A DNA stretch of 64,000 bases, taken from contig JACRLG010000028.1 of assembly GCA_016235345.1 (NCBI GenBank), positions 1 through 64,000 of the forward strand, written 5' to 3'. The DNA comes from Deltaproteobacteria bacterium (lineage in GTDB: Bacteria > Desulfobacterota > Desulfobacteria > Desulfobacterales > Desulfatibacillaceae). The notes under the pieces were generated by a model. That model ran no database searches. It had not been told where the DNA came from and saw only the letters and a program-made list of their open reading frames with translations. Both the position numbers and the translations under genes were made by a program. Each line of letters begins with the position of its first letter. The stretch's first letter is position 1. Below, one piece after another: positions 1 to 23,113 of the stretch.

Positions 1-204
1 CAGAGGCTACAGGAACATGGGACGAAGGCCAATCGAGACCTTTTTGATCGGCAAAAAGCGGCGGGAGGAACTCTCCGGGGTCGCCGCCTAAAACCACTCG
101 CCCGAGAGGCCAACTGTCCGGCAGGTCCTTGACTTTTACAGTTTGAGGCTCAACTTTAGGCTAATATGCTGCAGAGGCGAGAGTATTGAAAAGAATTCAA
201 TATG

Positions 205-2489: not shown

Positions 2490-2699
2490 TATTTCTTTTG
2501 AGCATACTCTCCTTAAAACATAAGAAAATTATGCGGGCTGGGAGAGGAAGGCTCAGAAATCCGTATAGTAGAATATACCAAAAATTGTCAAAATTCAACA
2601 TACATTGAAGAACTTGATCGCTCGGGACGTAAGCACCATCTGAATTACCGGCTTCCCGACCTGCCCAATGAGCCCGAAGTATGCGGCCGGGCAAACGGT

Positions 2700-4787
2700 T
2701 TGATAGCGCGCGCCCTGGCTGCTCTTGCCTCAAGGTTCAACAGCACGGATGTCAAGGTGGACGTGACCGTTGGAAACGCTGCCCGAATATGGAAGCTATA
2801 CGGCACGATGGCGTGCAAGGGTGATGACACCCCCGGCAGGCCACACCGCATAAGCTCCCTGTTTAAAGGTGCCCCCCTGGTACTTGGGGATGTCCCCGTA
2901 TCAGACAGAGATGCGTTGGAGCGACTTGCCGCCACGGCTCCGACTGCTGCAGGAAAGGGTCGGCAACGTCAGCCATCGTCACCCGGAAAAAACAAGTCTC
3001 TTCCTCAAGACGGAAATCTTGGGCCGATAAATATTCCCGCTTATTTGAATCATTACGGTGTCACTTTTAGAGGCACCAAGCAGGAAGGGGCCGCGACGTA
3101 TTATCTGCTGGAAAACTGCGTATTCGATCCTGAGCATACGGACGGCAAGGCCGCCATAATCGGATCTCCTGAGCCCCCCTATCTTTCTTACGCCTGCTTT
3201 CATCAAAGCTGTTCAGGCAAAACCTGGAAGGAAGCCAGAACGGCCATATCCGGCGATGACCCGTTGGCGCGTTTTTGTGACGGATACGACCCTGACTGGC
3301 AACCGGAACGCAAAAAACGAATGTTGCGCGACCGCTCCGGCAATGAGCCTGCGGCGATTTGTGAATCGGCGGGAAATGTTGACAAAAGCAACCTATTTGA
3401 CGTTGATTTTGAGGCCCTGCCTTCAATTCCGACACCCAAAGAAGTTGACCCGCTATTATTTTTCGATCTTGGGCCTGAAGGGAAACGCAAAAGGGGCAGC
3501 TTTGTTGAAATGAAGATGGCGCAATACCTTTCCCTGTATTTTGCGCCCATCCTTAAAACCAACGGAAAATTCTATCAATTTAAAGATGGGGTTTGGAAAA
3601 TCCTTTCCGAGACCGTGATAGAAAAAGCAGTGGCGCATTCGCTGAAAAACCTCTGCAAGGCTCCACATCTGGACAGTTCTATAAGAGTGTTCGGAGCACA
3701 GGTAGGCCAGGAAGAGGAGGAGTGGCCCGATTATCCCAACCTGATCAACTGCAAAAACGGCATGGTGAATATGGAGGCCGACTATTTGGAGTTCAAAGGC
3801 AAGAGCAGAGACGTTTTGCTCCCTCACGATCCCAAGTACGGCAGCCGGGTGCAACTGCCTGTCGAATACGATCCTGAGGCAACGTGCCCCAGGTGGGAAC
3901 AATTTTTACAGGAAATTTTTCCGACAAGCCCGGAAAGGGCGGCTTTGCTGCAGCTATTTTCGGGTTACGTGCTCTTGCCGCATACAAAATTTGAAAAGGC
4001 CCTGTTCCTTTTCGGGACCGGAGCCAATGGCAAGAGCACGGTCATCTCCGTGCTGGAAAAGATACTTGGGCCTGAAAACGTTTGTACTGTCTCATTGAGC
4101 GAGCTCAGCAGACCATTTTCGGTTCTGTCCTTGCAGAATAAGCTGCTTTCTGTGGCCTCTGAAATGGAAACCAAAGAGGCGCAAAGCACGGAGGTTTTAA
4201 AGAAGGTCATATCCGGCGACTCCATATCGGGGGAGGAAAAATTCGGAAAGCGGATCGAATTCAAAAGCTGCGTCAAATTCATGTTCGCCATGAACAACCC
4301 ACCCGCCGTCTCGGATAAGACTGAAGGCTTCAAACGAAAAATTCTGGTGTTATATTTCGACCAGAGGATTCCTGACTCAAAAATGGACAGGGGCCTGGTT
4401 GAGCACCTTGTACGTGAAGAATCCGCCGGGATATTCGCCTGGATGGTCATGGGGGCTGCAATTTTAAACAAGAAGGGCGGCTTCCTGAACCTTGGAAAGA
4501 TTGTTGAAAACGACACGAACAGCTTTATGCATACCTTGAATCCGCTTTTGGACTTTCTGGATGAGAAAACCCACCTGGACCCGGAAGCAAGCGTGCCGAG
4601 TGATGATTTTTATCGGGCGTACAAGGCTTGGAGCGAAGACAGCGGCTTGAGGCCTTTGGGCAAAGTTCAGCTAAATTTGCAGCTTCTAAGCGCCATGCCC
4701 AAGGTGAGCAAGAAAAAGATAACGGTCCCATTCGGTGGAACCGAGAGCCGCCGCCACTGCTATACGGGCATAAGACTTCTGTCATAG
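2700..4787 (+). CDS. Phage/plasmid primase, P4-family C-terminal domain, D5-like NTPase/helicase; probably 5'-truncated.
   Basis: Walker A motif LFLFGTGANGKST and a D5_N-like region. The ORF only opens with TTG at 2700, right at the GC discontinuity. A Prim-Pol C-terminal-like remnant (RIWKLYGT..KG) and a Zn finger (CFHQSC) are present, but no catalytic primase N-terminus. Confidence 0.75.
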   Translation: MIARALAALASRFNSTDVKVDVTVGNAARIWKLYGTMACKGDDTPGRPHRISSLFKGAPLVLGDVPVSDRDALERLAATAPTAAGKGRQRQPSSPGKNKSLPQDGNLGPINIPAYLNHYGVTFRGTKQEGAATYYLLENCVFDPEHTDGKAAIIGSPEPPYLSYACFHQSCSGKTWKEARTAISGDDPLARFCDGYDPDWQPERKKRMLRDRSGNEPAAICESAGNVDKSNLFDVDFEALPSIPTPKEVDPLLFFDLGPEGKRKRGSFVEMKMAQYLSLYFAPILKTNGKFYQFKDGVWKILSETVIEKAVAHSLKNLCKAPHLDSSIRVFGAQVGQEEEEWPDYPNLINCKNGMVNMEADYLEFKGKSRDVLLPHDPKYGSRVQLPVEYDPEATCPRWEQFLQEIFPTSPERAALLQLFSGYVLLPHTKFEKALFLFGTGANGKSTVISVLEKILGPENVCTVSLSELSRPFSVLSLQNKLLSVASEMETKEAQSTEVLKKVISGDSISGEEKFGKRIEFKSCVKFMFAMNNPPAVSDKTEGFKRKILVLYFDQRIPDSKMDRGLVEHLVREESAGIFAWMVMGAAILNKKGGFLNLGKIVENDTNSFMHTLNPLLDFLDEKTHLDPEASVPSDDFYRAYKAWSEDSGLRPLGKVQLNLQLLSAMPKVSKKKITVPFGGTESRRHCYTGIRLLS

Positions 4788-4855
4788 GGCTGAGCCATGC
4801 ACAAATGACGCGAGGAATTAATAAGGGTTGTGGGTTTTAAGGTGGAGCAAGCCCC

Positions 4856-5122
4856 GTGACGATATTTGAAAAAGCCTTAGTACCGGTCTGGAGTACCGTT
4901 GCCGCCGCAGCGCCGTTGTTCGGCATGGGCGAAAGGCGCGTGATAGAGCTTATCCGCTCCGGCATGGTAAAGGGTTATCAGGCGAACCAGCAGGACGACG
5001 CCCGGCGCTCGTGGTGGGTGGACACCAGGAGCCTTGACCGGTATCACGGAGACAGGGCGGCACAATACCAGGGCGAAGCGGATCTTGTGGCGCAGGACGC
5101 CCTTCGCAGGATGCGCAAATGA
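4856..5122 (+). CDS. Excisionase/AlpA-family HTH DNA-binding protein.
   Basis: 88 aa. The GERRVIELIRSGMVKGYQ ... WWVD pattern resembles excisionase/AlpA HTH_17 proteins. It lies immediately upstream of int and overlaps it. Confidence 0.5.
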   Translation: MTIFEKALVPVWSTVAAAAPLFGMGERRVIELIRSGMVKGYQANQQDDARRSWWVDTRSLDRYHGDRAAQYQGEADLVAQDALRRMRK

Positions 5123-6129
5123 ATCCTTCTTGCCCAACAGATAGTCTTCGTGCTACCTTTCCCTCCATGAGACTTTTTGAACGAAACGGCATATGGTACG
5201 TCCAGGTTCGCAGAGGCCAGAAAATCAGCCTCAAAACCTCGGACCGCAAGGTGGCAGAGTCCGCCTTCCGCAAGATGCAAAAAGAGGCTCTTGAGGGTCG
5301 TTTGTTCCAGTTGGACAAATCCGCCCGCATCCCCCTCCGGCAATGGGGAGAGGAATATCTCAAAAGCCGGGGGCACTTGGCTGACGGCACCCTCAAAAAA
5401 GACCGTATGGTCCTGGGGCTTTTGGGCGATGTGATCGGCCACGACATCGCAATTAAAGCTGTGACTAAAGCGAAACTGGACGAGTTCGTCCGCGCATGTC
5501 TCGCCCGTGGCGTATCCAAGCCAGGACTCAACTCCTATCTCCGCCACATCAGGGCCTGCCTCAATGCCGCCGAGGAGGCAGGGTACCTGGAAAAGCCCGT
5601 CAAGACCAAGATGGTCAGGGAGCCTTCCAGGTATCCAGGCATCCTGTCCCCGGAGCAAATCGCACAGGTAATCGCCTATGCCGAAATCCATGACCCGGAG
5701 ATGGCCCGCATAATCCGTTTCGCCGTGTGGACCGGCTGTCGTCGCGTGGAAATCATCGGGCTGCGGTGGGAGCACGTTAAAGGAGACCTTGTCCATATTA
5801 TAGGCAAAGGCGACAAGGAGCGGCACGTACCTCTGCTGTCAGGGGCGCTGGAAGCGATGGGAGATGTCAAGCATATCGGCCCGGTCTTCTGGCAGGTTCA
5901 CCCGGATGTTGTCACCCATCATTTTAAAGACATTGCCCGCGCCTGTGGCATGGAAAACGTCCATTTCCACAATTTAAGGCACAGCTCAGCCACACAGATG
6001 CTTTCTTCCGGGATTCCGCTCCACATGGTCCAGGAAGTTTTGGGCCATTCCAGCATCGCAACGACACAAATTTACGCCAAGGTTTTAAAGGAGACTTTGA
6101 CCAAGGAGATGCAGAAACTCAAGTGGTGA
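5119..6129 (+). CDS. int: Tyrosine recombinase / phage integrase family.
   Basis: Catalytic C-terminal motifs HNLRHSSATQML..GIPLHMVQEVLGHSSIATTQIYAKV and an N-terminal SAM-like domain. Confidence 0.9.
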   Translation: MNPSCPTDSLRATFPSMRLFERNGIWYVQVRRGQKISLKTSDRKVAESAFRKMQKEALEGRLFQLDKSARIPLRQWGEEYLKSRGHLADGTLKKDRMVLGLLGDVIGHDIAIKAVTKAKLDEFVRACLARGVSKPGLNSYLRHIRACLNAAEEAGYLEKPVKTKMVREPSRYPGILSPEQIAQVIAYAEIHDPEMARIIRFAVWTGCRRVEIIGLRWEHVKGDLVHIIGKGDKERHVPLLSGALEAMGDVKHIGPVFWQVHPDVVTHHFKDIARACGMENVHFHNLRHSSATQMLSSGIPLHMVQEVLGHSSIATTQIYAKVLKETLTKEMQKLKW

Positions 6130-6195
6130 TGCACCCAAAAGGCACCCAAGCCGCTATAACCATCTGAAATCATTCACCGCGCCAAAGCACTTAAA

Positions 6196-6245
6196 ATCCC
6201 TCGATTCTTGCAATCGTGCCGGTTCGATTCCGGCTCCGGGCACCA
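6196..6245 (+). other. tRNA 3'-end fragment (T-arm, acceptor 3' strand and CCA), a putative att core repeat of the integrated element.
   Basis: GCCGGTTCGATTCCGGC (T-arm), then TCCGGGC, A, CCA ending at 6245. No complementary 5' acceptor strand or D-arm lies upstream, so it is not a complete tRNA. Confidence 0.5.
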
Positions 6246-6348
6246 GTAAAATCTGTACCACAATCGGTTCTGTCCAGACTGCGGTGGTGGCCTGAAAAGG
6301 CTTGTAAGGCATGCTCCAAGCCATACCGGCCAGCGCGGCCTTGTGCAT

Positions 6349-7860
6349 TTATTGCGGCAGAGCGCTGAAGGTGAGCGATGATTTGCCCTTGAACGCAACA
6401 GTGGCCAGAATGCCGTCCGATGCCGTTGCAAGATATGTGATGTCGGCCTGATCCAGTTGAGCCGATAGAGCGATGCCGTCTTTGATGCGCAAGTTTACCA
6501 GATGCCTGTTGAGCATCGAAAGCCGTTTCGCAACCTCCGCCCTGATGTCCCAGTTGAGTTCACCCTGTATGCTTTTCACAAAATCATCATGCAGAAGGTA
6601 ATCGGCGGTCTTGACCAGAAGATTATAGGTATCAAGGTCGTAGTCGAGCTCCTCCACCCAGAGCCGGTACGTTTCCGGGCTGAAGCGCAGCTTGCCGGTA
6701 AGGAACACGCTTCCCTTGGTATCGAAGGCCATTCCGGGCGAACGGGCGAGGAAATCTGCGCGCACCACGAGCGCCGGGCCGTTGCCGTAAATGTCGATGC
6801 CGGAGAGCGTCACCGTAACGTTCTTTTTTACCTTGTACTTTCGCCCGACCAACACCTTGCCCGCTATTTCCCGCGCCTGGCCGTAGTGGAGCTTGACCGG
6901 CGCGTTAATCACGAAACCGGGCTTTACCTCGCCCTTTTGAAGAGGTGGCAGGGGGCCGACTTCCCGGTCTGCCGGGCATGGCCCCACAAAGGTCGAGACC
7001 AACGCGTTCAAGCCCACAAGGATTCTGACCGCGTCCCCATCCTGGCCGAAACCGGAGTAGCTGAAATGATTCGGCGTTATGACCAGCCAGGTCTCCGGGC
7101 TTTTTGCCAGCAGAAGGGGTTTGCGGCACATCTCCCAGATTCTTTCGGCCTGCGGCCTCAGTTGCACCTTTTCCGGAACTTCCAGGTCGAATCTGGCGAG
7201 CGCCTCGTTCCATTTGGGCTTCACCTTTCCTTCCAGAAGCCCCTGGCAGCTAACCGGGATCAGGCCGAAAAGTTTGAACTCGGCTTTTTGGGCGAGGAAA
7301 TCCCCGACCGTGTTCGTGCAAAGCCGCCAGTCCGGCGTGACGGCGATTGACGAGATTGCCGAAAGGTCCGCGATAACGTCTGCAGTTTCGCGGATACCCG
7401 CCTTTTCCGCAGTGATGGAGCCCTTTAGCCTGGTTCCGATGGAAACCCGGTTGTCATCCACCGATATCGTCAAATCGCCCCGCCTTACATCGGCCCTCCA
7501 TTTGGCGCTGACCGTCGCCACTTTTATGTCATCCTTGAAAACCCCGTCTATGGGCCAAATATCTGTCAGGCCGCCAGCCCCGGTGCCGATGCTTATCTGT
7601 TTGGAAACCACCCCGGACTCCCTGAACTTCTGTGGGACCTTGCTTTCCAGGAGAGCCTTTAAGACATCGATGGGGATGGAAATGGCCATGTTGGCCACGG
7701 AAGCCTGGGGCGGCGGAAGCGCCGGGGACTGAAATTCGCGCGGCCTTATAGGCTCGATGCTTTTGGCGCAGCCCGAAAGCGCCACTGCCAGAAAAATCGC
7801 AAGTATATGGAATAAATATGGATGACGGCCAAAATGCCGACGTTTTGAAAAATTTTTCAT
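6349..7860 (-). CDS. Hypothetical lipoprotein.
   Basis: ORF with a lipoprotein signal MKNFSKRRHFGRHPYLFHILAIFLAVALSGC (lipobox LSGC). Start chosen at the ATG at 7860 rather than the longer ORF-track start. Confidence 0.65.
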   Translation of the reverse strand: MKNFSKRRHFGRHPYLFHILAIFLAVALSGCAKSIEPIRPREFQSPALPPPQASVANMAISIPIDVLKALLESKVPQKFRESGVVSKQISIGTGAGGLTDIWPIDGVFKDDIKVATVSAKWRADVRRGDLTISVDDNRVSIGTRLKGSITAEKAGIRETADVIADLSAISSIAVTPDWRLCTNTVGDFLAQKAEFKLFGLIPVSCQGLLEGKVKPKWNEALARFDLEVPEKVQLRPQAERIWEMCRKPLLLAKSPETWLVITPNHFSYSGFGQDGDAVRILVGLNALVSTFVGPCPADREVGPLPPLQKGEVKPGFVINAPVKLHYGQAREIAGKVLVGRKYKVKKNVTVTLSGIDIYGNGPALVVRADFLARSPGMAFDTKGSVFLTGKLRFSPETYRLWVEELDYDLDTYNLLVKTADYLLHDDFVKSIQGELNWDIRAEVAKRLSMLNRHLVNLRIKDGIALSAQLDQADITYLATASDGILATVAFKGKSSLTFSALPQ

Positions 7861-8032
7861 CACCTGCCTCCTTAACGAGGCCTTCATGGTAACGCCTATC
7901 GTGCATTCTTTCAACAACTGTGGCACGGTGTCCTGAAAGCATTCCACAGAAGGCAGGCACTCAAAAAAAATGCGGATCACCGGCGTGATTGCAGGTACCG
8001 ATCGATCCGGTGGATTTGGAGGAAAGGAAAAA

Positions 8033-8063
8033 CCGGCTTTCGGAAATTGCCAGCCGGTTTAAC
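8033..8063 (-). terminator. Putative rho-independent terminator after the flotillin gene.
   Basis: Inverted repeat AAACCGGCT..AGCCGGTTT (9-bp stem) followed on the minus strand by a T-rich tract. Confidence 0.3.
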
Positions 8064-8122
8064 CTTTCTTAGTCACCCAGGGTATACGAAGATAGAACTG
8101 CCGCAGGGCATTGGGCCAGCCC

Positions 8123-10117
8123 TTACGATTCTCCCCCGCTTTCGGCCTGATCTCCCTTGATCTTGTTGGCGAAAAAGCCCGTGAGCACCGCCGCCAGACC
8201 CTCTATGGCCCCTCCGCCGCCCGAAGCCCCCCCCGCCTGAACCTGGGGCACTATGGAAATCTGGTTTTCCGCAAGGGTCCGTATGACGTTTATAAGGGCC
8301 GTGCCGTCGCGCCCCATCGCCTTCACCTGCTCCTCGTAGCCCTTGGCCTGGGCTAGCCCCGTGGCCTCCACCTCGGCGGCCTTGGCCCTGCCCGTCTCCC
8401 TTATGTAATAGGCCTCGCCGTCAGCCTGGGCAGTGCGCGCCCTCGCGTTGTTCTCGTTGACCTTTATTCCGATCTCAGAGCCTATCAGTTCCTTTTGCTT
8501 GTCGGCCCTGGCCCCGGAGCTTTCCCTGGCCACCCTTTCGTCCTCGGCGAGCTTTTCCTGCTTGTAGGTCTCTATCTGCTGCGCCGCAATTTCACGATCC
8601 TGCAAAACCTTCACGAGTTCAGCCGGAAAAACGACGTCCTGGATATATACGCCCCTGGTTTCAACCTCGTACTTGCCAAGATGCATGGTCACGTGCTCGG
8701 ATGCCTGCCTCTGAACCTCTTGGCGGGTGGAGATGAAATCCACAGCAGCCAGGGTCTGGAGCTTATCCCTCATGTGGTTTCCCACGGCGGCCTGCAAGAC
8801 CTCGTTCACAAGGTTTTGCATTGTTCCCACCATGGAGATTATCTTCGGGGCCTTGGTATCCGGCACGTGAATCTGGACCTGCAGATCGATCTTGAAAACA
8901 AAGCCCTCCTTGCTCTTGGCCTCGATCTGGGAAAGTTTGGAATCAAGGTTGTGCGCCGCAGATGTCGCCGCCGCCCAGTTTAAGGTAAGAATGGAAGTGG
9001 GGACTATCTCAACTTTGTAGCAGCGCGGATTGATGGGGAATTTGCCTGTTCTGAGCGGTTCCTGCCAGATTCCCCTGTGACCGGGGCGCACCAGGGAGCC
9101 GAACTTGAAATTTTCACCGGAGGTGTCCTTGGTGGCCTGGCCCACGTAGGATTTCACAACCGCAACCTGCCCCTGCTGGACCACTGTCATGGGCACAGTT
9201 TCCACCTTCACCAAAAAGGGATTCAAGGCATAGGCCCCGTACATCAAGACGTCGTATTGAAGCCCTATGCGGCCTCCGTTATCGAGAAAAGCCTGGAAAT
9301 CCTGATAGTTGTTATGGAGATCGTTCTTGTTGCCCAAAAGAACCTCTATTAGCTGGGCGTCCGATTTTTCCTCCCTTTCCAGGGTTTCCATGTCATCGAA
9401 ACCGCCCAGTCGGCCTGCGATATCCCCGGACGGCAGAGGATTTCCCTCGAACACGGTGACGATTCCTATAACGTCCGTCACCTCGCCGGGATTGCCGTCT
9501 TTCTGGGGTTCGATGACGGTGAGCCTGAATCGCGCCGGTTCTATTCCAAAGGCGTCCGGGCTTAGATGGCCGTCTCTGGAGGTCCCGGCCCTCAGTTCCT
9601 CGGAAATGGGCACTCCGTAAACGTTATCGGCTGTAACCACCAGGAAAGCCACCGGGTGTATGGGAATCGTTGAACCGGGGGAAAGGACCGGCCTTTGTAT
9701 GCCTTTTTGGCCGCCGTTATTAATGAAGGTGTTGACGTTTCTGAAATCGCCGAACTCCCGCTTGTATTGGGCGGACTTGGCCCCGATGGGAAGCTCGGAG
9801 CCCACCTGGGCTATGACAACCCCTATCTGGCCTGCCGGGACCTGCACCCAGGGATGCTTTTCAACGGCGTACACCGGCCAGAGCATGAACCGGAGGCCCG
9901 GCATTAGAAGCTCGGCCTGATACCCCGCCTCGCCGTTGAACGCTATGGGGTTGTCTCCTTCCAGTTTTTTGACCGCCACGCGCTTAATGACGAGTCCTAT
10001 CTCGTTTTCCCCGATGTTGTGAAGGGAGCGCGAGGTTATGATGTGGGCCGCAATGCAAAGAGCGGCAAAGCAGATCACTATTATGCCAAGCGGGGAAAAC
10101 AGGAAGGAAAGGCTCAT
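8123..10117 (-). CDS. Flotillin-family SPFH/band-7 protein.
   Basis: 664 aa. N-terminal TM segment, SPFH domain and a long coiled-coil Ala/Glu-rich C-terminus typical of flotillin (YqiK/FloT-like). Confidence 0.85.
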   Translation of the reverse strand: MSLSFLFSPLGIIVICFAALCIAAHIITSRSLHNIGENEIGLVIKRVAVKKLEGDNPIAFNGEAGYQAELLMPGLRFMLWPVYAVEKHPWVQVPAGQIGVVIAQVGSELPIGAKSAQYKREFGDFRNVNTFINNGGQKGIQRPVLSPGSTIPIHPVAFLVVTADNVYGVPISEELRAGTSRDGHLSPDAFGIEPARFRLTVIEPQKDGNPGEVTDVIGIVTVFEGNPLPSGDIAGRLGGFDDMETLEREEKSDAQLIEVLLGNKNDLHNNYQDFQAFLDNGGRIGLQYDVLMYGAYALNPFLVKVETVPMTVVQQGQVAVVKSYVGQATKDTSGENFKFGSLVRPGHRGIWQEPLRTGKFPINPRCYKVEIVPTSILTLNWAAATSAAHNLDSKLSQIEAKSKEGFVFKIDLQVQIHVPDTKAPKIISMVGTMQNLVNEVLQAAVGNHMRDKLQTLAAVDFISTRQEVQRQASEHVTMHLGKYEVETRGVYIQDVVFPAELVKVLQDREIAAQQIETYKQEKLAEDERVARESSGARADKQKELIGSEIGIKVNENNARARTAQADGEAYYIRETGRAKAAEVEATGLAQAKGYEEQVKAMGRDGTALINVIRTLAENQISIVPQVQAGGASGGGGAIEGLAAVLTGFFANKIKGDQAESGGES

Positions 10118-10592
10118 TTAGATTTCCTCTTCGTTAACCGGTTATAAGACACCATCCCGAAGATATTGAAACTCACCGTCAATGCCCGCGCGACAGCAGG
10201 TGATCAATCATTCGCGTCCTTGCATTATGCTTTCAGGACGAAAACGTCAGGACATACATACTTCTTGCCTGTTCCCGTGCCCGTTTGAACCGGCAAGAGC
10301 GCGGTAGCAATTTTGTTTCAAGATATCAGCGCCTACCATATTCGACATGTTTATCGCAACATTTTCAGCGTAAATCGTCTGGCGGGCTTCGAGGGAAGGC
10401 GGGGTGTGCTTGCTTTGGGGCGGACGGCTGGCAAGGCCTGACGTGTGACGATCTGTAAAGCGGGTCCTGATCCTTAAACAAAAGCGACGGATCAAAGCCT
10501 TATCCGTAATTCTTCCTGTTGCGCTCCATGCTTCTTCTTCCTTTCCTTCATTTTTTTTCATGACCATGAAACTTACATTTTCAGGAAGCCTG

Positions 10593-10838
10593 CTATTGGT
10601 TGCCGTAGCCGTTAAGTTGTGAGCATTCCGGGCACTGCCACTGGATGCCGTTGCAGCTTAGGGTCCAGAAATTCTCGTCCATGCAGGGCTGGCACATGGC
10701 GAACCCGCACCGGCAGGTCCAGCAGAAAAGGTATTCCTTTTTGCACAACTGGCAGACCCGGTTCCTGGCCCGCCTGCCGGGCCGCCCCTTTTCCGCCCTG
10801 ACCGGCGAAACCTCGTCTTTTGGCCTGTTTTCGTCCAT
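10593..10838 (-). CDS. Small Cys-rich zinc-ribbon protein.
   Basis: Four CxxC-type pairs (CQLC, CWTCRC, CQPC, CPEC). GGAGG lies 9 nt upstream of the internal ATG at 10838. The longer TTG-start ORF to 10940 is less likely. Confidence 0.45.
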   Translation of the reverse strand: MDENRPKDEVSPVRAEKGRPGRRARNRVCQLCKKEYLFCWTCRCGFAMCQPCMDENFWTLSCNGIQWQCPECSQLNGYGNQ

Positions 10839-10974
10839 TCCGTCATCCTCCAAGCGCCCTGCCCTCCTGTTTGAGCCCTTCCGCATCGCGTTCTTGAGAT
10901 TGCAGACAATAGATGATAGGAATTTTGGAATCAACCGCAAGTATTACGCACCCCAAAATAGCGAGCCCCAATTC

Positions 10975-13624
10975 ATGCCCCAGTCATTTTACATCATAGA
11001 CGGATCCGCCTTCATCCACCGGGCCTATCACGCGGTGCGCGGGCTTTCCACATCGAAGGGCTTTCCCACAAACGCGATTTTCGCCTATACCCGGATGCTC
11101 CTGGCGCTCATGCGCGACAAGCGCCCGGATTACGCCGTGGTGGTTTTCGACGCCAAAGGCCCCACGTTCCGGCACGAAATGTACGAGGCATACAAGGCCA
11201 ACCGGCCGCCCATGGACCCGGAACTTGCCATGCAGGTCCCCTACGTGCGCACCATCACCGGGGCGCTTTCCATTCCATACATCGAACTCATAGGCTTCGA
11301 GGCCGACGATATCGCCGGAACCCTTGGGAAACAGGCCCTTGGCCACGGCCTTGACGTGGTTTACGTAACCGGCGACAAGGATTTTCTTCAGCTTGCCGCC
11401 CCCGGCGTTTCGATAATGGACCCCATGAAGGAGACCTTCAAGGATTACGGGACGATCAAATCCGAGCTTGGCTTCGAGCCCGCGCGTTTCCGGGACGTGC
11501 TGGCCCTTTGGGGGGACAGTTCCGACAACATTCCGGGCGTTCCGGGAATCGGCGAAAAAACCGCGATGGCGCTTATAAAGGAATTCGGAAGCCTTGAAGG
11601 TGTTTACGAAAACCTCGACAAGATCACCAAAAAGAAGCAGAAGGAAAACCTTGAATCAAGCCGGGAAAACGCGTTTTTGAGCCTTAAACTCGCAACCATC
11701 GATACCAATGTTCCGGTGGAGTTTTCGCGGCAATCCCACAAGCCGGGGGAGCCTGACCGGGAAAAACTCGCGCCGGTTTTCGAGGAGCTGGAGTTTTCAA
11801 AGCTCGCTGCGGAATTTGCGGTGATGGCGGAAACGCCGCCCGCCCCCGTCCTCCCCCCGCCGGAATACGTGAGCATCACCGACGAGGACGCCCTTACGGC
11901 CCTTGCCGCCGAGCTTTCCCGATGCGCCGAGTTTAGCCCTGGTGGGCATCAGCCTCGCCACCGGCCCGGGCCGGGGGTGGTACGTCCCGGTGGATCACAC
12001 GGCCCTTGCCGCCCCCAGGCAGGCGGGCCTTGAAAGCGCTCGCCGGATTCTCGGCCCGGTATTTGCCGACCCGCGCATCAAAAAGGTGGGCCAGAACATC
12101 AAGTACGATCTCATCGTGCTGGTTCGACACGGTTTTAAAGTGGAAAACATAGCCTTCGACACCATGATCGCCTCCTACCTCTTAAATCCCTCCTCCCGCG
12201 CCCACGGCCTGGACAGGCTTGCCTCCGACCTTCTGGGCCACAGGATGATCCCTTACGAGGAGGTGGCCGGAAAGGGCAAGGGGGAGGTAGGCTTCGACCA
12301 CGTGCCCGTAAAGGAGGCCACCGCATATTCGGGCGAGGACGCGGACATCACATTGCAGATCAAGGAAAAGCTCGCGCCCATGCTGGAGGCCGAGGGCCTT
12401 TCAAGCCTTTTCGCGGAAGTGGAAATGCCCCTGGTGAGGGTTCTGGCGGATATCGAGATGAAGGGGATAAGGGTTGACACCGATCATCTGAAAACCCTGT
12501 CCCGCGAGTTCGAGGCGGAGATGAAAACCGTGGAAGCCGCGATTTTCGGGCTTGCCGGAGGCCCCTTCAACATCGCCTCGCCCCAGCAGCTCGGCCACGT
12601 GCTCTTTGAAAAGCTGGGCCTGCCCACCCAGAAAAAGACCAAGAAGAAAACCGGCTACTCCACCGACGCGGCGGTTCTGGAGCAGCTTGCGCCCAGCCAC
12701 GAGCTTCCGGCCCAGGTGCTGCGCTACCGGACTCTCGCCAAGCTCAAATCCACCTACGCCGACGCCCTTCTTTCCCTGGTGAACCCGCATACGGGCCGGG
12801 TCCACACTTCCTTCAACCAGAACGTGGCCGCCACGGGCCGCCTTTCAAGCTCGGACCCCAACCTCCAGAACATCCCCATCCGCACAAAGGAAGGCCGACG
12901 CATCCGCGAAGCCTTCATACCGGAAAAGGGAATGGTGATGTTTTCGGCTGACTACTCCCAGATCGAGCTACGAGTCCTGGCCCACTGCTCGAACGACCCG
13001 GTTCTGATCGACTCCTTCAAAAAAAACGAGGACGTGCACACCCGCACGGCAAGCGAAATTTTCGACCTCGACCCGGCCTTTGTGACGGGTGAGATGCGCC
13101 GGCAGGCGAAAAGCATCAACTTCGGCCTCATCTACGGCATGGGGGCGTTCAAGCTCTCAAACGAGCTTGGAATCAGCCAGTCGCTTGCCAAGCGCTACAT
13201 CGAGCGCTACTTTTTAACGTACCAGGGCGTGAAACGCTTCATGGACCTTTCCATCGAAACCGCGCGGGCCACCGGGAAAACCACCACCCTCATAGGCCGC
13301 ATCCGGCGTCTGCCCGCCATAAACGGCAAGGACCGGGTGGAGCGCGAGGCGGCGGAGCGCATAGCCATCAACACCCCCATCCAGGGAACGGCGGCGGACA
13401 TCATAAAAATCGCAATGATCCGGGTTCAGAACGCCCTTATCGAACGGAAGATGAAAACCGCCATGCTGCTTACGGTTCACGACGAGCTTGTTTTCGAGGC
13501 CCCGCCGGATGAACTTTTAGAGGCGAAAAGCCTTGTGCGGGATTTGATGGAAGGGGCGATGGAGCTTCTGGTGCCGCTAACCGTCAACATGGCCGAGGGC
13601 GAAAACTGGGCAGAGGCGCATTGA
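10975..13624 (+). CDS. polA: DNA polymerase I, interrupted by an apparent frameshift near 11905-11935 (5'-3' exo in frame 1; 3'-5' exo-like and polymerase domains in frame 2).
   Basis: N-terminus MPQSFYIIDGSAFIHRAYHA at ATG 10975. The downstream frame carries KVGQNIKYD, RVHTSFNQNVAATGRLSSSDPNLQNIP, QIELRVLAH and VHDELVFE, collinear with E. coli PolI. The two frames overlap at 11903-12033. Confidence 0.85.
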
Positions 13625-13639
13625 GGGGCAGGGTCGGCT

Positions 13640-16560
13640 CGACTCTTGAGTTTTTCTATCTAATCTGCAGCTTCTGAATATATATTATAATCTAACGCAT
13701 CGTCAATTCGAGAATTTAAGATATCAAGCTCATCTTTGGCTTTATTTCGATCATGAATTCCAACATCTGTATCATGTATAATTTGATGTAATATCCTACA
13801 TCTCAATTTTTGATGTACCATTATATCTTTACCTTCAATTATACGCCAGTATCTTGAAGCTTCTTTCCAGTTTTCTTTAGAAACATATAATTTACATTTT
13901 AATCCGTTGACAACATCCTTTTTATCAGGCCTCGGACCAAATTTTTTTTCAATTTTTTCAATCAGATTTTGTGCCTCATCATATTTAGAAAGTTCTATAT
14001 ATATGTCAGCTAGATTTGACAAATTCTCAAATCTAGGAGTATATTGCATTGATGTTTTCTCAGCGAAACTTAACGCTTCCTCATAAAAGCCTTTTGAAGA
14101 ATAAAATATCGACATTCTATGATTATAACTACTATCGTCGCCAGCGCGTTTTAATAAATCTAATTTTTCAATTGCTTTATCATATTGCCCGAGCTTAATA
14201 TATATTAGAGCTGATAAATCGAGAAGTAATGGGTTTTCAGCCTTTTGGCCTTTAATGCTTTCAATCGTATTTTTTGCATCTTTAATGCGTCCTGATGCTA
14301 TAAGTGTATGAATTAAACCATGATAAGTAGCAACAGATCTATTTCCTGCATCTATTGCATGCTTAAAATATTTCGACGCTGCTTCGAATTCGTATCTCTT
14401 CCAATGAAAAAAACCTTTTAAATAAAGACAGTCATCAAATTTTTTATCACAAATAATTTGTAAAAGTTTTTTTGCATTATCCCATTCAGCCAGTCTAATA
14501 TAGGTTTTACATAATAATGATGCTGCCTTTCGATTGTATTCTTGTATTTTTAATACATTTTCTAATAAATTTTTAGCAATTATCCATTCTTTTTGTCCAC
14601 CGATATTGTAATAATCCCTTGCATTTCTCAGCAACATTGATGGAATAACAAAAGATTTGAAATCATCATTAATTCCTTTTTCTGATCTTATACTTGCTTG
14701 TATCGTACAATCAATTACATCCATTCTTGGCGATGTATTGATTATATCCCATATGTTTGTTTTCAAATTTGATAATATTTCATTATATTTTTCAGGGCTA
14801 ATTCTACCTAACACTCTATTAACAGTAGATTTTATTGGTGATGCAATTATAAATGTTTCTTCTAATGCATAAATTAAGCAAAAATTAATAAGCTTTTTAA
14901 TAATTTCGGTTAATCTTTCGGTTTTAAAGCGTGATATTATCTGCAGTGTTTGATAGCTTATAGCTGAATTTTCGGCGATATATTTTAATATAAATTTTTC
15001 ATCTTCATGTAGAATTAATTTTTCAATTATTGGCGCATAAGCTTTGATTTGCAGATTAGATAAAAATTGTTTATCATTAAATAAAACCTCGACAGTGTAT
15101 TGTTTTGCATAAGCTACTGATAGTGATACAGCAGGTGGAAATCCAGCCATGTAATATGATAGTTCTTGAATTTGTTCTTCATCTAGAGCGATATTCGCAT
15201 CTTTAAACAATAAAAAAATTAAGGTTTTGGTATTTTCTAAATCAATAGGCGGAACTTTTAAATATATGGGGTCTAAAAAACTCCAATCTTTATCTTCAAT
15301 AGTTGGTCTGAATTGATGAATTACAGCAAAATATTTTTCTTTATATTTTGATAAACTTTTAAAAAGTTGTATAGCTTCATTAGTATATCTAGATAGCGAA
15401 TCTGTTAATGCTCCATTGTCAATAATTGTAGGCAATTCATTTTTTCCAGATGTCGATGTAAGCAATAAAGCAATTTCATTTATTTGATCTTTTAAATTAA
15501 GTTTTCGAAATCTATTCATTTCACTATTAATTTGATCTTTTGAGTATAATTCACCTGATTCATCGATTAATGCCATATATAAACTGTCCATCCCATCATC
15601 TGGGTCTAACACTATCTGTGGACCAAGATTTTGCGAAATAATGTCTTTGGCTACTTTTGTCAAAAATGTTCTTCTGCCTACATTGGGTAAGCCACCAAGT
15701 ATAATTAAATTTTCATATTCATGGCCAATTCTTTTTCGCAAACTTGCCGAAAATGAATCTTGTAAATTTGATCTACCAAGACATTTAAATGTTTTTCCCA
15801 TATCCAGTAATCTATTTAAACTTGATTCAATTATTCTTGATGCTCTACCAGGGTTCGTAACTTTTTCAATTATTATATGTTTCATCCATTCTGGAATATT
15901 ATCAATTTCTGTATCATCAATTATTATTACAATTGCTTTCTTAATAATATTTAATGAATACAACTCTTGAGCATAGTTTATTTCAAAGTTTACCCAAGAT
16001 GATTGCAATGAATTTTTACTAGCTAATAAAACGAAAATGCTGGTCTCTTTAAGTTTTGAACGAATTTCATCAATCAATAATTGACCAGTTTCAAAACAAT
16101 ATTCATCGAGAATAATATTGCGACGCTTTAATCTGTTAGCCAAGGTTTCAACAAATGCCTTTTCTTTTTTTGAATGACACAAAAAAGCTCTCATGATTTA
16201 GCTCCTTATAGGCTTTTTTTGTCTATTTCAGCTTATCAATTGCCGTTTTGGCCATAGACATATCCCACAATGAGATAAGGAGGTCAACTTGTCGGCAAGG
16301 TCCTCGAATTCGATAAGTTAAACTTCAAATTAGACTCTCAAGCTTCCTTCCTTTCCGGTTATGATTATGGAACGATTTCGTACAGATGTTTCTATCCTAT
16401 TTTGTTCCAACTCGCTTTTCCAATAACTATTTTATACTAAGGATTTTTTTGAATATCAAGTCCCAACTGTATCCTGAAAAATTTTCTGTGTGGGGGAACC
16501 ACCTTAAAAATCCTCTTGCAATTATTTTGAAGCTCGTTTACTCTTTGAACCGGATTCAAT
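13640..16560. mobile_element. AT-rich (about 30% GC) single-gene defence islet.
   Basis: Sharp compositional discontinuity against the roughly 60% GC flanks. It contains only the TIR-STAND-TPR gene plus about 350 bp of AT-rich upstream sequence. Confidence 0.5.
13660..16194 (-). CDS. TIR domain - STAND (NB-ARC/NACHT-like) NTPase - TPR repeat protein (bacterial NLR-like antiphage class).
   Basis: N-terminus AFLCHSKKEKAFVETL...IFVLLASKNSLQSSWVNFEINYA matches bacterial TIR. A P-loop-like ILGGLPNVGRRTFLTKVA follows, then a C-terminal series of TPR-like helical repeats. Confidence 0.85.
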   Translation of the reverse strand: MRAFLCHSKKEKAFVETLANRLKRRNIILDEYCFETGQLLIDEIRSKLKETSIFVLLASKNSLQSSWVNFEINYAQELYSLNIIKKAIVIIIDDTEIDNIPEWMKHIIIEKVTNPGRASRIIESSLNRLLDMGKTFKCLGRSNLQDSFSASLRKRIGHEYENLIILGGLPNVGRRTFLTKVAKDIISQNLGPQIVLDPDDGMDSLYMALIDESGELYSKDQINSEMNRFRKLNLKDQINEIALLLTSTSGKNELPTIIDNGALTDSLSRYTNEAIQLFKSLSKYKEKYFAVIHQFRPTIEDKDWSFLDPIYLKVPPIDLENTKTLIFLLFKDANIALDEEQIQELSYYMAGFPPAVSLSVAYAKQYTVEVLFNDKQFLSNLQIKAYAPIIEKLILHEDEKFILKYIAENSAISYQTLQIISRFKTERLTEIIKKLINFCLIYALEETFIIASPIKSTVNRVLGRISPEKYNEILSNLKTNIWDIINTSPRMDVIDCTIQASIRSEKGINDDFKSFVIPSMLLRNARDYYNIGGQKEWIIAKNLLENVLKIQEYNRKAASLLCKTYIRLAEWDNAKKLLQIICDKKFDDCLYLKGFFHWKRYEFEAASKYFKHAIDAGNRSVATYHGLIHTLIASGRIKDAKNTIESIKGQKAENPLLLDLSALIYIKLGQYDKAIEKLDLLKRAGDDSSYNHRMSIFYSSKGFYEEALSFAEKTSMQYTPRFENLSNLADIYIELSKYDEAQNLIEKIEKKFGPRPDKKDVVNGLKCKLYVSKENWKEASRYWRIIEGKDIMVHQKLRCRILHQIIHDTDVGIHDRNKAKDELDILNSRIDDALDYNIYSEAAD

Positions 16561-16656
16561 AAATGAACTTAATTTCACTTCGGCGGTTTCCTCTGTCCCC
16601 CAAAACAGGCGGAAAGCCGCCCTCACCGCTTTTCCATAATTAATCCCGGAGGCGTC

Positions 16657-17799
16657 ATGGACTTTCAATTCACCAAGGATCAGTTGATGTTCAAGGAGGA
16701 GGTCATCCGCTTCGCAAAAAAGGAGATCGTCCCCCGCGTTCAGGAACACGACCTTAAAAACGAGTTCGATTTCGAATCCTTCCGCAAAATGGGCGAGTTC
16801 GGCATTCTTGGCCTGCATTTCCCCGAGGAACTGGGCGGCCAGGGCGCGGACGTGATCACCACGGTGCTGGCTGGCGAAGCATTGGGGGAAGCGGGCGTTG
16901 ACGGCGGACTCACCCTGGCCTACGGCGCACATACCTTTTTATGCGCGGACACCCTCTTCCGCCACGGAAACGACGCCCAGCGCAAAAAATACATCCCGAA
17001 ACTCGCAAGCGGCGAGTGGATAGGCTGCATGGGCCTCACCGAGCCGGGCGCGGGGAGCGACGTGGCCTCCATGACATCCACCGCCGAAAAACGGGACGGC
17101 AAATACATTTTAAACGGCAACAAGATGTTCATCACCAACGGCCCCATTGCAGACGTGGCCGTGGTCTACGCCAAGACCGACCCGGCGGCCCACCACGCGG
17201 GAATCTCTGCCTTCATCATCGAAAAAGGGACCCCCGGATTTTCCGCAGGCCCGCCCCTCATCAAAATGGGCGTTCACACGTCCCAGACCTCGGAACTCAT
17301 AATGCAGGACTGCGCCATCCCGGAGGAAAACCTCCTTGGCCAGGAAGGCATGGGCTTTCTGATGGCAATGGGCACCGTTGAATGGGACCGCTCGGCGCTT
17401 CTTGCCCCCTTCATAGGCTCCGGGGCGTATCTCCTTAAAAAATGCACCCGCTACGCCAAGGACCGCGTGCAGTTCGGCAGGCCCATCGGCCAGTTCCAGG
17501 CCACCAAGCACAAGCTCGCCAACATCCGCATAATGCTGGAAGCGGCCAAGGCCCTTGTTTACCGCATCGCCTGGTGCAAGAACACGGGAAAGCCCTTAAA
17601 TCACCTGGAAGCCGCAGTGGCCAAGCTCTTTGCGGGCGACTGGACCCTAAATCCCATGAACGACGCCATGCTCCTTTTCGGCGGCTACGGCTACTGCCAC
17701 GAGTACGACGTGGAGCGCTGCTTCCGGGACAGCCGCCTCGCCCCCATCGGCGGCGGCACCAGCGACATCCAGAAGATGATCATCTCAAAGATGCTGTAG
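16657..17799 (+). CDS. Acyl-CoA dehydrogenase.
   Basis: 380 aa ACAD fold (N-terminal helical, beta and C-terminal helical regions, e.g. GCMGLTEPGAGSDV, FGGYGYCHEYDVERCFRDSRL). Confidence 0.9.
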   Translation: MDFQFTKDQLMFKEEVIRFAKKEIVPRVQEHDLKNEFDFESFRKMGEFGILGLHFPEELGGQGADVITTVLAGEALGEAGVDGGLTLAYGAHTFLCADTLFRHGNDAQRKKYIPKLASGEWIGCMGLTEPGAGSDVASMTSTAEKRDGKYILNGNKMFITNGPIADVAVVYAKTDPAAHHAGISAFIIEKGTPGFSAGPPLIKMGVHTSQTSELIMQDCAIPEENLLGQEGMGFLMAMGTVEWDRSALLAPFIGSGAYLLKKCTRYAKDRVQFGRPIGQFQATKHKLANIRIMLEAAKALVYRIAWCKNTGKPLNHLEAAVAKLFAGDWTLNPMNDAMLLFGGYGYCHEYDVERCFRDSRLAPIGGGTSDIQKMIISKML

Positions 17800-17804
17800 A
17801 GGCC

Positions 17805-17912
17805 GCCTCAAAACGCGATCTGCTGTGTTGTGCTCAAAGCCAATTCCGTCACGTACGAAAAGTACGCTTGACTCATTGGCTTATCGCACGCCTTGCAGCT
17901 CATCGTTTTGAG
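17805..17912 (+). repeat. Intergenic palindromic repeat element, copy A (subfamily 1).
   Basis: Shares ..AAAACGCGA.., the AAGCCAATTCCGYCACGTACGAAAAGTACGCTTGACTCATTGGCTT hairpin core and ..CATCGTTTT.. with copies C, E and F. Confidence 0.7.
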
Positions 17913-20557: not shown

Positions 20558-20623
20558 CCTGGGAGCGCGGGCGTCCCGCCCGCTTTTGCAGCGTAATGCG
20601 GGCGGGACGCCCGCGCTCCCAGG
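20558..20623. promoter_or_regulatory. Long perfect GC-rich hairpin (26-bp stem, 14-nt loop): a putative terminator or regulatory structure.
   Basis: CCTGGGAGCGCGGGCGTCCCGCCCGC ttttgcagcgtaat GCGGGCGGGACGCCCGCGCTCCCAGG, between the PHP gene and the thiolase gene. Confidence 0.4.
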
Positions 20624-20752
20624 GTAAAAGTTTCCTGTCCATTTTACGGCAAAGTTGAGAATAGCATAAAGCCACGAAGATTTTTTCGGAAGGGCGCGAC
20701 AATCCGCGCCATTTTTCAATCACTGGCATAAAAGGCTTCGGAGGGTTCAACC

Positions 20753-21892
20753 ATGAACAAAGTCGGCATCTGCGCGGTTGCGCAAGGTCCCTTTGAACGG
20801 AACACCTGGCACGAGCGCTTCCAGGGCATGGCCATGCCCGTACTGGAATCGCTCCTTTCGCAAACCGGCCTCGACTTCGCCGAAGACACGGGCATAAACG
20901 TCATCGTCTCCTGCTCGGACGACGTTTTCGACGCCCGCACCATTTCGGACAACGGCATGACCGATGTTCTGGGCGGCCACATGCGCTGCGAGGAAAAGGT
21001 GGCCCAGGACGGCATCCAGGCGGTCTACTACGCATCAAGCATCATAATGAGCGGCTACACCGACGTGGTGCTGGTTTTGGGCCACTCGAAGGAATCCCAG
21101 GGCCAGAGCCGCAACATGGTGACGCACCTTGCCTTCGACCCATTCTACACAAGGCCTGTGGGGCTTGATTTCACGGCGGCGGCGGGGCTCCAGGCAAGGG
21201 CCTACGGAAAACTTTCCGGCGTCTCCGAAGAAGAACTCGCCGAAATCGTGGTGAGAAGCCGCGAGAACGCGAAGAGAAATCCGCACACCCAGGACCTTGC
21301 GCCTGTTTCGATGGACGACGTTCTTTCCTCCCCCATGCTGGCCGACCCCATCCGCCAGCTTCACGCCTACCCGGTATCGGACGGCGTTGTGGGAATGATC
21401 TTCGCTTCCGAGGAACGCGCCAAAAAACTCTGCAAGAACCCGGTCTGGGTCACGGGCCTGGGTAACTGCATGGACGGCTTCTTTCTGGGAGACCGGGACA
21501 TCGCCGACAACTTCGCTCTTAAAAAGGCGGCGGAGCGCGCCTACAAGCGGGCTGGAATCACCGACCCGGCCAAGGAAATCGACATCTTCGAGGTGTCCGA
21601 TCACTACGCCTACCAGCAGCCCATGTGGCTTGAGGGCCTGGGGCTCGCCGAAACCGGAAAGGGCCCGAAGTTCCTGGCACACGGAGGCAAGGACCGGGTG
21701 AATCCTTCGGGCGGGATGCTTGCCGGAAACCCCCTCATGCTGGGCGGCCTCGTTCGCGCGGCGGAAGCCGCCGTGCAGCTTAAAAATGAGGCCGGGGACA
21801 GGCAGATTCCGGGAGTGAAGAAGGCGCTCGCCCACGGAGTTATGGGGCCGGCGGGGCAGTTCCATGGCGTTGCGGTTTTATCAAAGGACTAG
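20753..21892 (+). CDS. Thiolase-like protein (SCP-x/Ltp-type; may be a non-canonical partner subunit).
   Basis: 379 aa thiolase fold lacking the canonical N-terminal active-site Cys context. Adjacent to a second thiolase-like gene. Confidence 0.75.
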   Translation: MNKVGICAVAQGPFERNTWHERFQGMAMPVLESLLSQTGLDFAEDTGINVIVSCSDDVFDARTISDNGMTDVLGGHMRCEEKVAQDGIQAVYYASSIIMSGYTDVVLVLGHSKESQGQSRNMVTHLAFDPFYTRPVGLDFTAAAGLQARAYGKLSGVSEEELAEIVVRSRENAKRNPHTQDLAPVSMDDVLSSPMLADPIRQLHAYPVSDGVVGMIFASEERAKKLCKNPVWVTGLGNCMDGFFLGDRDIADNFALKKAAERAYKRAGITDPAKEIDIFEVSDHYAYQQPMWLEGLGLAETGKGPKFLAHGGKDRVNPSGGMLAGNPLMLGGLVRAAEAAVQLKNEAGDRQIPGVKKALAHGVMGPAGQFHGVAVLSKD

Positions 21893-21903
21893 GAGGAATA
21901 ACG

Positions 21904-23094: not shown

Positions 23095-23113
23095 GCGAAG
23101 GGAGGAAGATAAC

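What the first reader, a model, noticed from the sequence alone, without database searches (positions are those of the whole stretch)
11890..12035. Apparent frameshift in polA at the 3'-5' exonuclease motif region, in a proofreading domain that looks inactive
PolI is encoded in frame 1 up to about 11920 (…ITDEDALTALAAELSRCAEF…) and continues in frame 2 (…SFPDAPSLALVGISLATGPGRGWYVPVDH…KVGQNIKYD…). The switch happens within a ctttccc homopolymer-containing stretch, and both frames run into stops if read through. In the continued frame the canonical Exo I motif (E. coli FAFDTETDSL) is replaced by SFPDAPSL, so the proofreading domain would be inactive (Taq-like) even if the frame were intact. The shift is either a sequencing or assembly indel or a genuine polA pseudogene.
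Basis: seen in the sequence. Interest (0 to 1): 0.5.

Follow-up and report, generated by a model that had tools for sequence, protein, structure and literature searches.

The report
41-base gap breaking polA gene
The DNA polymerase I gene in this window is broken by a 41-base gap that removes its proofreading motif, but an otherwise identical contig from a public sequencing run has those 41 bases and an intact, normal gene, so the break is most likely an assembly error or at most a very recent null allele.

Summary
The frame break is real. polA runs in frame 1 from 10975 to 11937 and in frame 2 from 11939 to 13624.

- **Cause.** It is not a one-base homopolymer indel. The window lacks 41 nt between 11937 and 11938.
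- **Intact copies.** Those 41 nt are present in a Logan contig (L082, run SRR12113407) that matches the window at 100% over 6,548 nt. They are also present in two relatives, L081 and L086.
- **What was lost.** The missing bases encode LDTETTSVSPTSAR, the canonical Exo I motif. 'SFPDAPSL' is the out-of-frame reading of the DNA that encodes ELSRCAEF.
- **Repaired gene.** It gives an 896-aa Pol I that aligns without gaps to E. coli Klenow. Exo I, II and III are all present, so it is not Taq-like.
- **Uniqueness.** Seven Logan contigs from three runs match 15.7 kb of the window with no other difference.
- **Selection.** dN/dS is about 0.11 on both sides of the gap, so there is no sign of pseudogene decay.
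- **Junction.** It shares only 1 nt of homology.

Best reading (about 0.6): a local assembly or scaffold-join error. Rival (about 0.3): a very recent loss-of-function allele that keeps the 5' nuclease. Either way the finding is ordinary and of low interest.

The parts
10975..11937 (+). polA 5' part in frame 1 (321 codons). It holds the 5'-3' exonuclease/FEN domains (Pfam 5_3_exonuc_N at 10987-11433, 5_3_exonuc at 11476-11760), the linker, and the first strand of the 3'-5' exonuclease domain, ending ...AELSRCAEFS.
   Evidence: It is 100% identical to L082 and 98% identical at protein level to P0001.
11937..11938 (+). Deletion junction. 41 nt (cttgacaccgagaccacctcggtttcccccaccagcgcgcg) are missing between these two bases. 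They encode LDTETTSVSPTSA plus two bases of the next Arg codon, which is the Exo I motif. Only 1 nt (C) of homology is shared at the junction.
11938..12033 (+). Out-of-frame tail of the truncated frame-1 product (PGGHQPRHRPGPGVVRPGGSHGPCRPQAGGP, then TGA at 12031-12033).
11939..13624 (+). polA 3' part in frame 2. It holds the rest of the 3'-5' exonuclease domain (Exo II QNIKYD at 12092-12109; Exo III YSGEDAD at 12326-12346) and the family A polymerase domain (motif A DYSQIELR 12950-12973, motif B RRQAKSINFG 13097-13126, motif C VHDE 13475-13486). Stop at 13622-13624.
11903..11944 (+). The only in-frame restart codons near the junction are TTG 11903 and GTG 11942. By eye neither has a well-spaced Shine-Dalgarno match, so the 3' part would probably not be translated by itself.
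   Evidence: one search lists the starts and their upstream 20-mers. The expression statement is inference.

Best explanation
This is an ordinary, E. coli-type DNA polymerase I gene: 5' nuclease, active-type 3'-5' proofreading exonuclease, and family A polymerase. It belongs to an uncultured bacterium whose nearest named relatives are Desulfatibacillaceae. In this assembly it lacks 41 nt at 11937/11938. The loss removes the Exo I motif (DTET) and shifts the frame. The most likely cause is a local assembly or scaffold-join error in the source assembly, not biology. The organism itself most likely carries the intact 896-aa gene seen in contig L082.

Shown: the 41-nt difference, its uniqueness, the intactness of the alternative allele, and the absence of decay. 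Inferred: that the deletion arose during assembly.
For: - L082 (Logan contig of run SRR12113407) matches window 6216-12763 at 100% identity over 6,548 nt. The only exception is 41 extra nt, which restore one ORF reading ...CAEFSLDTETTSVSPTSARLVGISLA....
- Seven Logan contigs from three runs match the window over 15.7 kb of non-redundant sequence, with no mismatch or indel other than this one. The same clonal population was therefore sequenced, and the 41 nt is the only discrepancy.
- Relatives L081 (about 96% nt identity) and L086 (93%) also carry the 41 nt. It is the only gap in the 2.69-kb polA alignment.
- dN/dS against L081 is 0.11 overall, 0.09 upstream and 0.13 downstream of the gap. There are no substitutions against L082, L083 or L084 downstream. 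There is no pseudogene decay.
- The junction has only 1 nt of homology. The nearby GCCT repeats are 42 nt apart, so slippage between them would give an in-frame 42-nt loss, not 41.
- No gene product matching either half of the broken gene, under eight start-codon choices, is on record among about 15 billion proteins.
- Across about 13 kb syntenic with L081 there is no other frame-breaking difference. The other window genes scanned against Pfam show near full-length domain matches.
- Local assembly errors are a documented class in metagenome-assembled genomes. One 1.13-Mb genome had 13 of them, and they are known to corrupt coding sequences (PMC7111523).
- The probable source project scaffolded MEGAHIT contigs with the IDBA-UD scaffolder (PMC7906910).
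Against: - No reads could be inspected.
- de Bruijn graph assemblers rarely create a deletion without read support, and there are no Ns at the site.
- The source assembly of the window and its pipeline are not known. The link to PRJNA640378 rests on run accession numbers adjacent to SRR12113421.
- Only one independent contig (L082) spans the site.
- The deleted segment can form two hairpins (DNA fold z = -2.85), which could favour a real deletion in vivo.
- The lesion spares the 5' nuclease. From memory, that is the part of Pol I that E. coli needs most, so a real null allele could be viable.
Confidence: 0.6

Rival explanations
1. The deletion is a real, very recent 41-nt loss-of-function allele in a subpopulation, dominant in the sample that gave this assembly. 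It would produce a 352-aa stand-alone 5' nuclease (FEN-like) with a 32-aa nonsense tail. The Klenow-like remainder would be untranslated or poorly translated, and it would lack the Exo I carboxylates in any case.
For: - The junction is a clean join without Ns.
- The deleted segment and its right flank form two stable hairpins, a context known to favour deletions.
- The 5' nuclease domains are complete in ORF1.
- From memory, E. coli tolerates loss of the Pol I polymerase domain if the 5' nuclease is kept (Joyce and Grindley 1984).
- Short-read graph assemblers normally need reads to support a junction.
Against: - An intact allele exists on a 100% identical background in run SRR12113407.
- No downstream substitution and no relaxed dN/dS.
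- No independent sighting of the deletion allele.
- Pol I is a strongly conserved housekeeping gene, intact in every relative retrieved.
Confidence: 0.33
2. One reading: a one-base indel in the ctttccc run, inside a polA whose proofreading domain had already degenerated (Exo I FDTETD replaced by SFPDAPSL, as in Taq).
For: Both frames overlap across 11873-12033, so by eye the switch point can be placed anywhere in that stretch.
Against: - DNA alignment places a single 41-nt gap at 11937/11938. The ctttccc run is identical in all four sequences.
- SFPDAPSL is the frame-2 reading of DNA that encodes ELSRCAEF, a stretch conserved in P0001.
- The intact allele carries DTET, NIKYD and YSGEDAD, aligned to the Klenow motifs.
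Confidence: 0.01
3. The arrangement is functional: a programmed +1 frameshift, or a natural split of polA into separate 5'-nuclease and Klenow-like genes.
For: Frame 2 is open for 160 nt before frame 1 stops. Stand-alone 5' nucleases and Klenow-like genes exist in some bacteria (from memory).
Against: - All relatives, including the 100%-identical L082, encode a single ORF.
- The break lies inside the exonuclease fold rather than at a domain boundary, and it removes catalytic residues.
- No restart codon with a good ribosome-binding site.
- No conservation of the split in 120 listed homologues, all 882-936 aa long with all five Pfam domains.
Confidence: 0.02

Closest known systems
E. coli DNA polymerase I / Klenow fragment (PDB 1KFD, 1KLN, 1D9D, 8OO6)
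   Same: The repaired protein has the same three-domain layout. Its exonuclease domain aligns without gaps to Klenow (E = 4e-62 to 6e-60). The matching motifs are Exo I (FSLDTETTS vs FAFDTETDS), Exo II (VGQNIKYD vs VGQNLKYD) and Exo III (YSGEDADIT vs YAAEDADVT). All five Pfam domains are present.
   Different: In the window as given, 41 nt are missing, including the Exo I Asp and Glu codons, and the frame is shifted. The closest named relative reaches about 60% identity (Desulfatibacillum alkenivorans Pol I).
Taq / Bst-type Pol I with a vestigial, inactive 3'-5' exonuclease domain
   Same: If the deletion allele were translated, the product would lack the Exo I carboxylates and would have no proofreading activity.
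   Different: In Taq and Bst the domain degenerated by substitution over evolutionary time (from memory). Here the intact allele has the full active-site set, and the loss is a single 41-nt gap. Taq aligns to the query only from residue 205 and Bst only from about residue 121, so neither covers Exo I.
Local assembly errors in metagenome-assembled genomes (Chen et al. 2020, PMC7111523)
   Same: The lesion is small and isolated, is contradicted by another assembly of reads from the same population, and corrupts a coding sequence. The frequency, about one per 64-kb window, is of the order reported there: 13 per 1.13 Mb.
   Different: Lack of read support, which is the defining test, could not be checked here.
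Laboratory polA mutants of E. coli that keep only the 5' nuclease (from memory: Joyce and Grindley 1984)
   Same: ORF1 of the window would be a 5' nuclease without polymerase, which is the viable configuration in E. coli.
   Different: Those are engineered alleles. There is no evidence that the window's allele exists in cells.

Membership tests
Bacterial DNA polymerase I (PolA, family A) | N-terminal 5'-3' exonuclease/FEN domains (Pfam PF02739 and PF01367) | tested here: met
   ORF1 residues 5-153 and 168-262 match, E = 7e-51 and 1e-34.
Bacterial DNA polymerase I (PolA, family A) | Family A polymerase domain with motifs A, B and C | tested here: met
   PF00476 matched over 2-381 of 381 profile positions, E = 1.5e-160. 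DYSQIELR, RRQAKSINFG and VHDE are conserved in the alignment.
Bacterial DNA polymerase I (PolA, family A) | Complete 3'-5' exonuclease domain with Exo I (DxE), Exo II (NxxxD) and Exo III (YxxxD) | tested here: not met
   As written, the window has Exo II and III, but Exo I is deleted and PF01612 matches only profile positions 40-173. With the 41 nt from L082 restored, the match covers 1-173 of 173 positions and all three motifs align to Klenow.
Bacterial DNA polymerase I (PolA, family A) | One uninterrupted ORF of about 880-940 aa | tested here: not met
   The window has two overlapping ORFs in different frames. L081 and L086 have a single 896-aa ORF, and L082 is uninterrupted over the 610 polA codons it covers before the contig ends.
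Exonuclease-deficient Pol I (Taq/Bst-like) | Exonuclease active-site carboxylates lost by substitution in an otherwise intact gene | tested here: not met
   The intact allele and all close relatives carry DTET, KYD and EDAD.
Decayed pseudogene | Relaxed selection or several lesions downstream of the first break | tested here: not met
   There is a single lesion. dN/dS is 0.13 downstream against 0.09 upstream. There are no differences from L082, L083 or L084 downstream.
Programmed ribosomal frameshift gene | Frameshift conserved in relatives, with a slippery site at the shift point | tested here: not met
   No relative has the shift. The frames differ because of a 41-nt gap, not at a slippery motif.
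Local assembly error | Consensus at the junction lacks perfect support by any read | not testable with these tools
   Reads are not available. The indirect evidence is that an independent assembly of a run from the same clonal population gives the intact sequence.

The most novel reading that the evidence does not exclude
A natural groundwater population of a Desulfatibacillaceae-related bacterium carries, at high frequency in at least one sample, a freshly arisen polA allele. A 41-nt, hairpin-associated deletion has cut the gene into a stand-alone 5' nuclease and an untranslated, proofreading-dead Klenow remnant. This would be a wild counterpart of laboratory polA polymerase-null mutants.
Probability: 0.3. 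Interest if true: 0.25.

Novelty: not a real feature. Interest (0 to 1): 0.07.

Why it matters
It matters mainly for data quality. Annotating this record as it stands would give a split or pseudogenised polA and could suggest a proofreading-deficient Pol I lineage. Neither is supported, because the population carries a normal E. coli-type Pol I. If the deletion proved real, it would be a modest curiosity: a natural polymerase-null, 5'-nuclease-only polA allele. It would not be a new kind of system.

Tried and rejected
- **Single-base indel in ctttccc.** Rejected by DNA alignment.
- **Slippage between direct repeats.** I first read a GCCT/GCCT microhomology. An exact test showed only 1 nt of homology and a 42-nt repeat spacing, so simple slippage does not give the observed 41-nt loss.
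- **Independent sightings of the deletion allele.** Exact look-ups of ORF1 from three starts and ORF2 from five starts found nothing. Two exact-pattern scans of JGI metagenome contigs found no trace of this species.
- **More contigs across the site.** Look-ups of neighbouring genes returned only L082. The look-ups of the 1007-aa ORF (23114-26137) and of Lon returned nothing.
- **Genome-contig scan.** It gave only distant relatives, at most 53% identity.
- **Tying runs SRR12113394/397/407 to a study.** The run accessions were not found in the paper's stored supplements. Only the neighbouring accession SRR12113421 is documented.
- **Programmed frameshift or natural split gene.** Rejected because it is not conserved in any relative.

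Full report
**1. What is in the sequence**

polA starts at ATG 10975 and is read in frame 1. This frame is homologous to Pol I up to ...ITDEDALTALAAELSRCAEFS, ending at 11937. It then runs through 32 unrelated codons to TGA at 12031-12033.

Frame 2 is open from 11873. It is homologous to Pol I from LVGISLATGPGRGWYVPVDH (11939) to the stop at 13622-13624.

**2. What the lesion is**

A search with the two halves joined in frame returned thousands of full-length Pol I proteins. The best 120 are 882-936 aa long and carry all five Pfam domains.

The closest is P0001 (896 aa, 96-98% identical). It has 14 extra residues exactly at the junction...RCAELSLDTETTSVSPTSARLVGISLA.... At DNA level its contig (L081) shows one clean 41-nt gap in the window and nothing else.

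A Logan contig from run SRR12113407 (L082) is more telling. It was found through the neighbouring Band_7 gene. It is 100% identical to window 6216-12763, which is 6,548 nt. The only difference is 41 additional nt between window 11937 and 11938:
- The extra sequence is cttgacaccgagaccacctcggtttcccccaccagcgcgcg.
- With these bases the gene reads ...CAEFSLDTETTSVSPTSARLVGISLA... without interruption.

A third relative, L086 (93% nt identity), also has the 41 nt. In a four-way alignment of the 2.69-kb gene, this is the only gap.

The peptide SFPDAPSL is the frame-2 translation of 11912-11935, DNA that in the correct frame encodes ELSRCAEF.

**3. The proofreading domain is not degenerate**

Repairing the window with the 41 nt gives an 896-aa protein.
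- Pfam then matches the 3'-5' exonuclease model over 1-173 of 173 positions. The frame-2 ORF alone matches only positions 40-173.
- The repaired exonuclease region aligns without gaps to the E. coli Klenow fragment at E = 4e-62 to 6e-60.
- Exo I is FSLDTETTS (Klenow FAFDTETDS), Exo II is VGQNIKYD (Klenow VGQNLKYD), and Exo III is YSGEDADIT (Klenow YAAEDADVT).
- Bst-type large fragments align only from about query residue 121, and Taq only from residue 205. Neither covers Exo I.

The 'Taq-like even if the frame were intact' reading is therefore refuted. What the window lacks is the Exo I Asp and Glu, because their codons lie in the missing 41 nt.

**4. Is the deletion biological?**

*Points favouring an artefact*
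- Seven Logan contigs from three runs (SRR12113394, SRR12113397, SRR12113407) match the window at 100% identity along their whole lengths. They cover 15.7 kb of non-redundant sequence (6216-12763, 12853-17863 and 20596-24774). The 41 nt is the only difference of any kind. The window therefore comes from the same clonal population, and the reads of at least one run assemble into the intact gene.
- There is no sign of decay. dN/dS against L081 is 0.11 overall, 0.09 upstream and 0.13 downstream of the gap. No substitution separates the window from the Logan contigs downstream of the gap.
- The junction shares only 1 nt. The nearby GCCT repeats are 42 nt apart and would give an in-frame loss by slippage. 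An arbitrary join fits better.
- No product of the broken gene, under eight start choices, exists among about 15 billion catalogued proteins.
- The window is not indel-prone. About 13 kb syntenic with L081 holds no other frame-breaking difference. Ten other window ORFs were scanned against Pfam; nine gave family matches, near full-length for the single-domain genes, and two neighbouring ORFs hit different families.
- Local assembly errors are a documented class in metagenome-assembled genomes, with 13 reported in one 1.13-Mb genome, and they corrupt coding sequences (PMC7111523).
- The neighbouring run accession SRR12113421 belongs to the He et al. 2021 groundwater project. There, MEGAHIT contigs were joined with the IDBA-UD scaffolder (PMC7906910). 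As I recall, that scaffolder trims the next contig by the estimated overlap when the estimated distance is negative, which would produce exactly this kind of small loss. I have not verified this.

*Points favouring a real allele*
- There are no Ns at the site.
- Graph assemblers normally need reads to create a junction.
- The intact segment folds into two hairpins, CCGAG-ACCAC-CTCGG and CCCACCAG-CGCGCGC-CTGGTGGG, with z = -2.85.
- The lesion spares the complete 5' nuclease. From memory, that is the indispensable part of Pol I in E. coli.

*Limits of this evidence*
- Only one independent contig spans the site.
- The window's own source and the sample link are inferred, not shown. The run accessions were not found in the stored supplements.

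**5. Consequences if it were real**

ORF1 would give a 352-aa FEN-like 5' nuclease with a 32-residue nonsense tail. The nearest in-frame restarts for the rest are TTG 11903 and GTG 11942. By eye neither has a well-placed ribosome-binding site, and any product would lack the Exo I carboxylates. The cell would have Pol I 5'-nuclease activity but little or no Pol I polymerase. This step is inference.

**6. Verdict**

The gene is an ordinary E. coli-type polA from an uncultured bacterium. Its nearest named relatives are Desulfatibacillum and Desulfosarcina, at 56-60% identity. This assembly's copy carries a private 41-nt gap.

| Explanation | Weight |
|---|---|
| Local assembly or scaffold-join error | about 0.6 |
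| Very recent real null allele | about 0.3 |

A count of reads containing the junction 31-mer would settle it in minutes. Interest is low.

Noticed in passing
window 13660-16194 (-): An 844-aa protein with an N-terminal TIR domain followed by TPR repeats. Its GC content is 29%, against about 58% for its surroundings. It sits between polA and an acyl-CoA dehydrogenase gene. In relative L081 the same slot holds a 181-aa ORF plus an HTH_37/Gp49 pair. This looks like a swapped defence or accessory cassette.
   Followed up: partly
window 7873-10589: About 2.7 kb carrying a 664-aa Band_7/flotillin-like gene (8123-10117, -). It is present in the window and in L082 but absent from L081, where the DUF4403 gene lies directly next to the small ORF upstream of polA. 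polA is thus flanked by variable islands on both sides.
   Followed up: partly
window 1-6200: A lower-GC stretch (41-57%) that looks like an integrated mobile or defence island upstream of the DUF4403 gene. It holds a RiboL-PSP-type HEPN protein (205-1248, -), a GmrSD_N/DUF262 protein (1245-2489, -), a D5-like primase-helicase (2700-4787, +) and a tyrosine integrase (5119-6129, +).
   Followed up: partly
window 10593-10838 (-): An 81-aa cysteine-rich ORF (several CxxC pairs) lies divergently upstream of polA. An 81-aa gene occupies the same position in L081 and L086. It has no Pfam match.
   Followed up: no
window 12764-12852, 17863 and 20596: Logan contigs from different runs start or stop at the same window positions: 12763 then 12853/12856, 17863, and 20596. 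This suggests graph branch points (strain variants or repeats) there, including one inside the polA polymerase domain.
   Followed up: no
L082 1-2109 (-), equivalent to window 10696 onward: The gene call on the Logan contig starts polA at an upstream in-frame ATG (window 10696, MANPHRQ...). That is 93 codons before the conserved MPQSFY start used by P0001 and all relatives. It is probably an over-extended start call.
   Followed up: no
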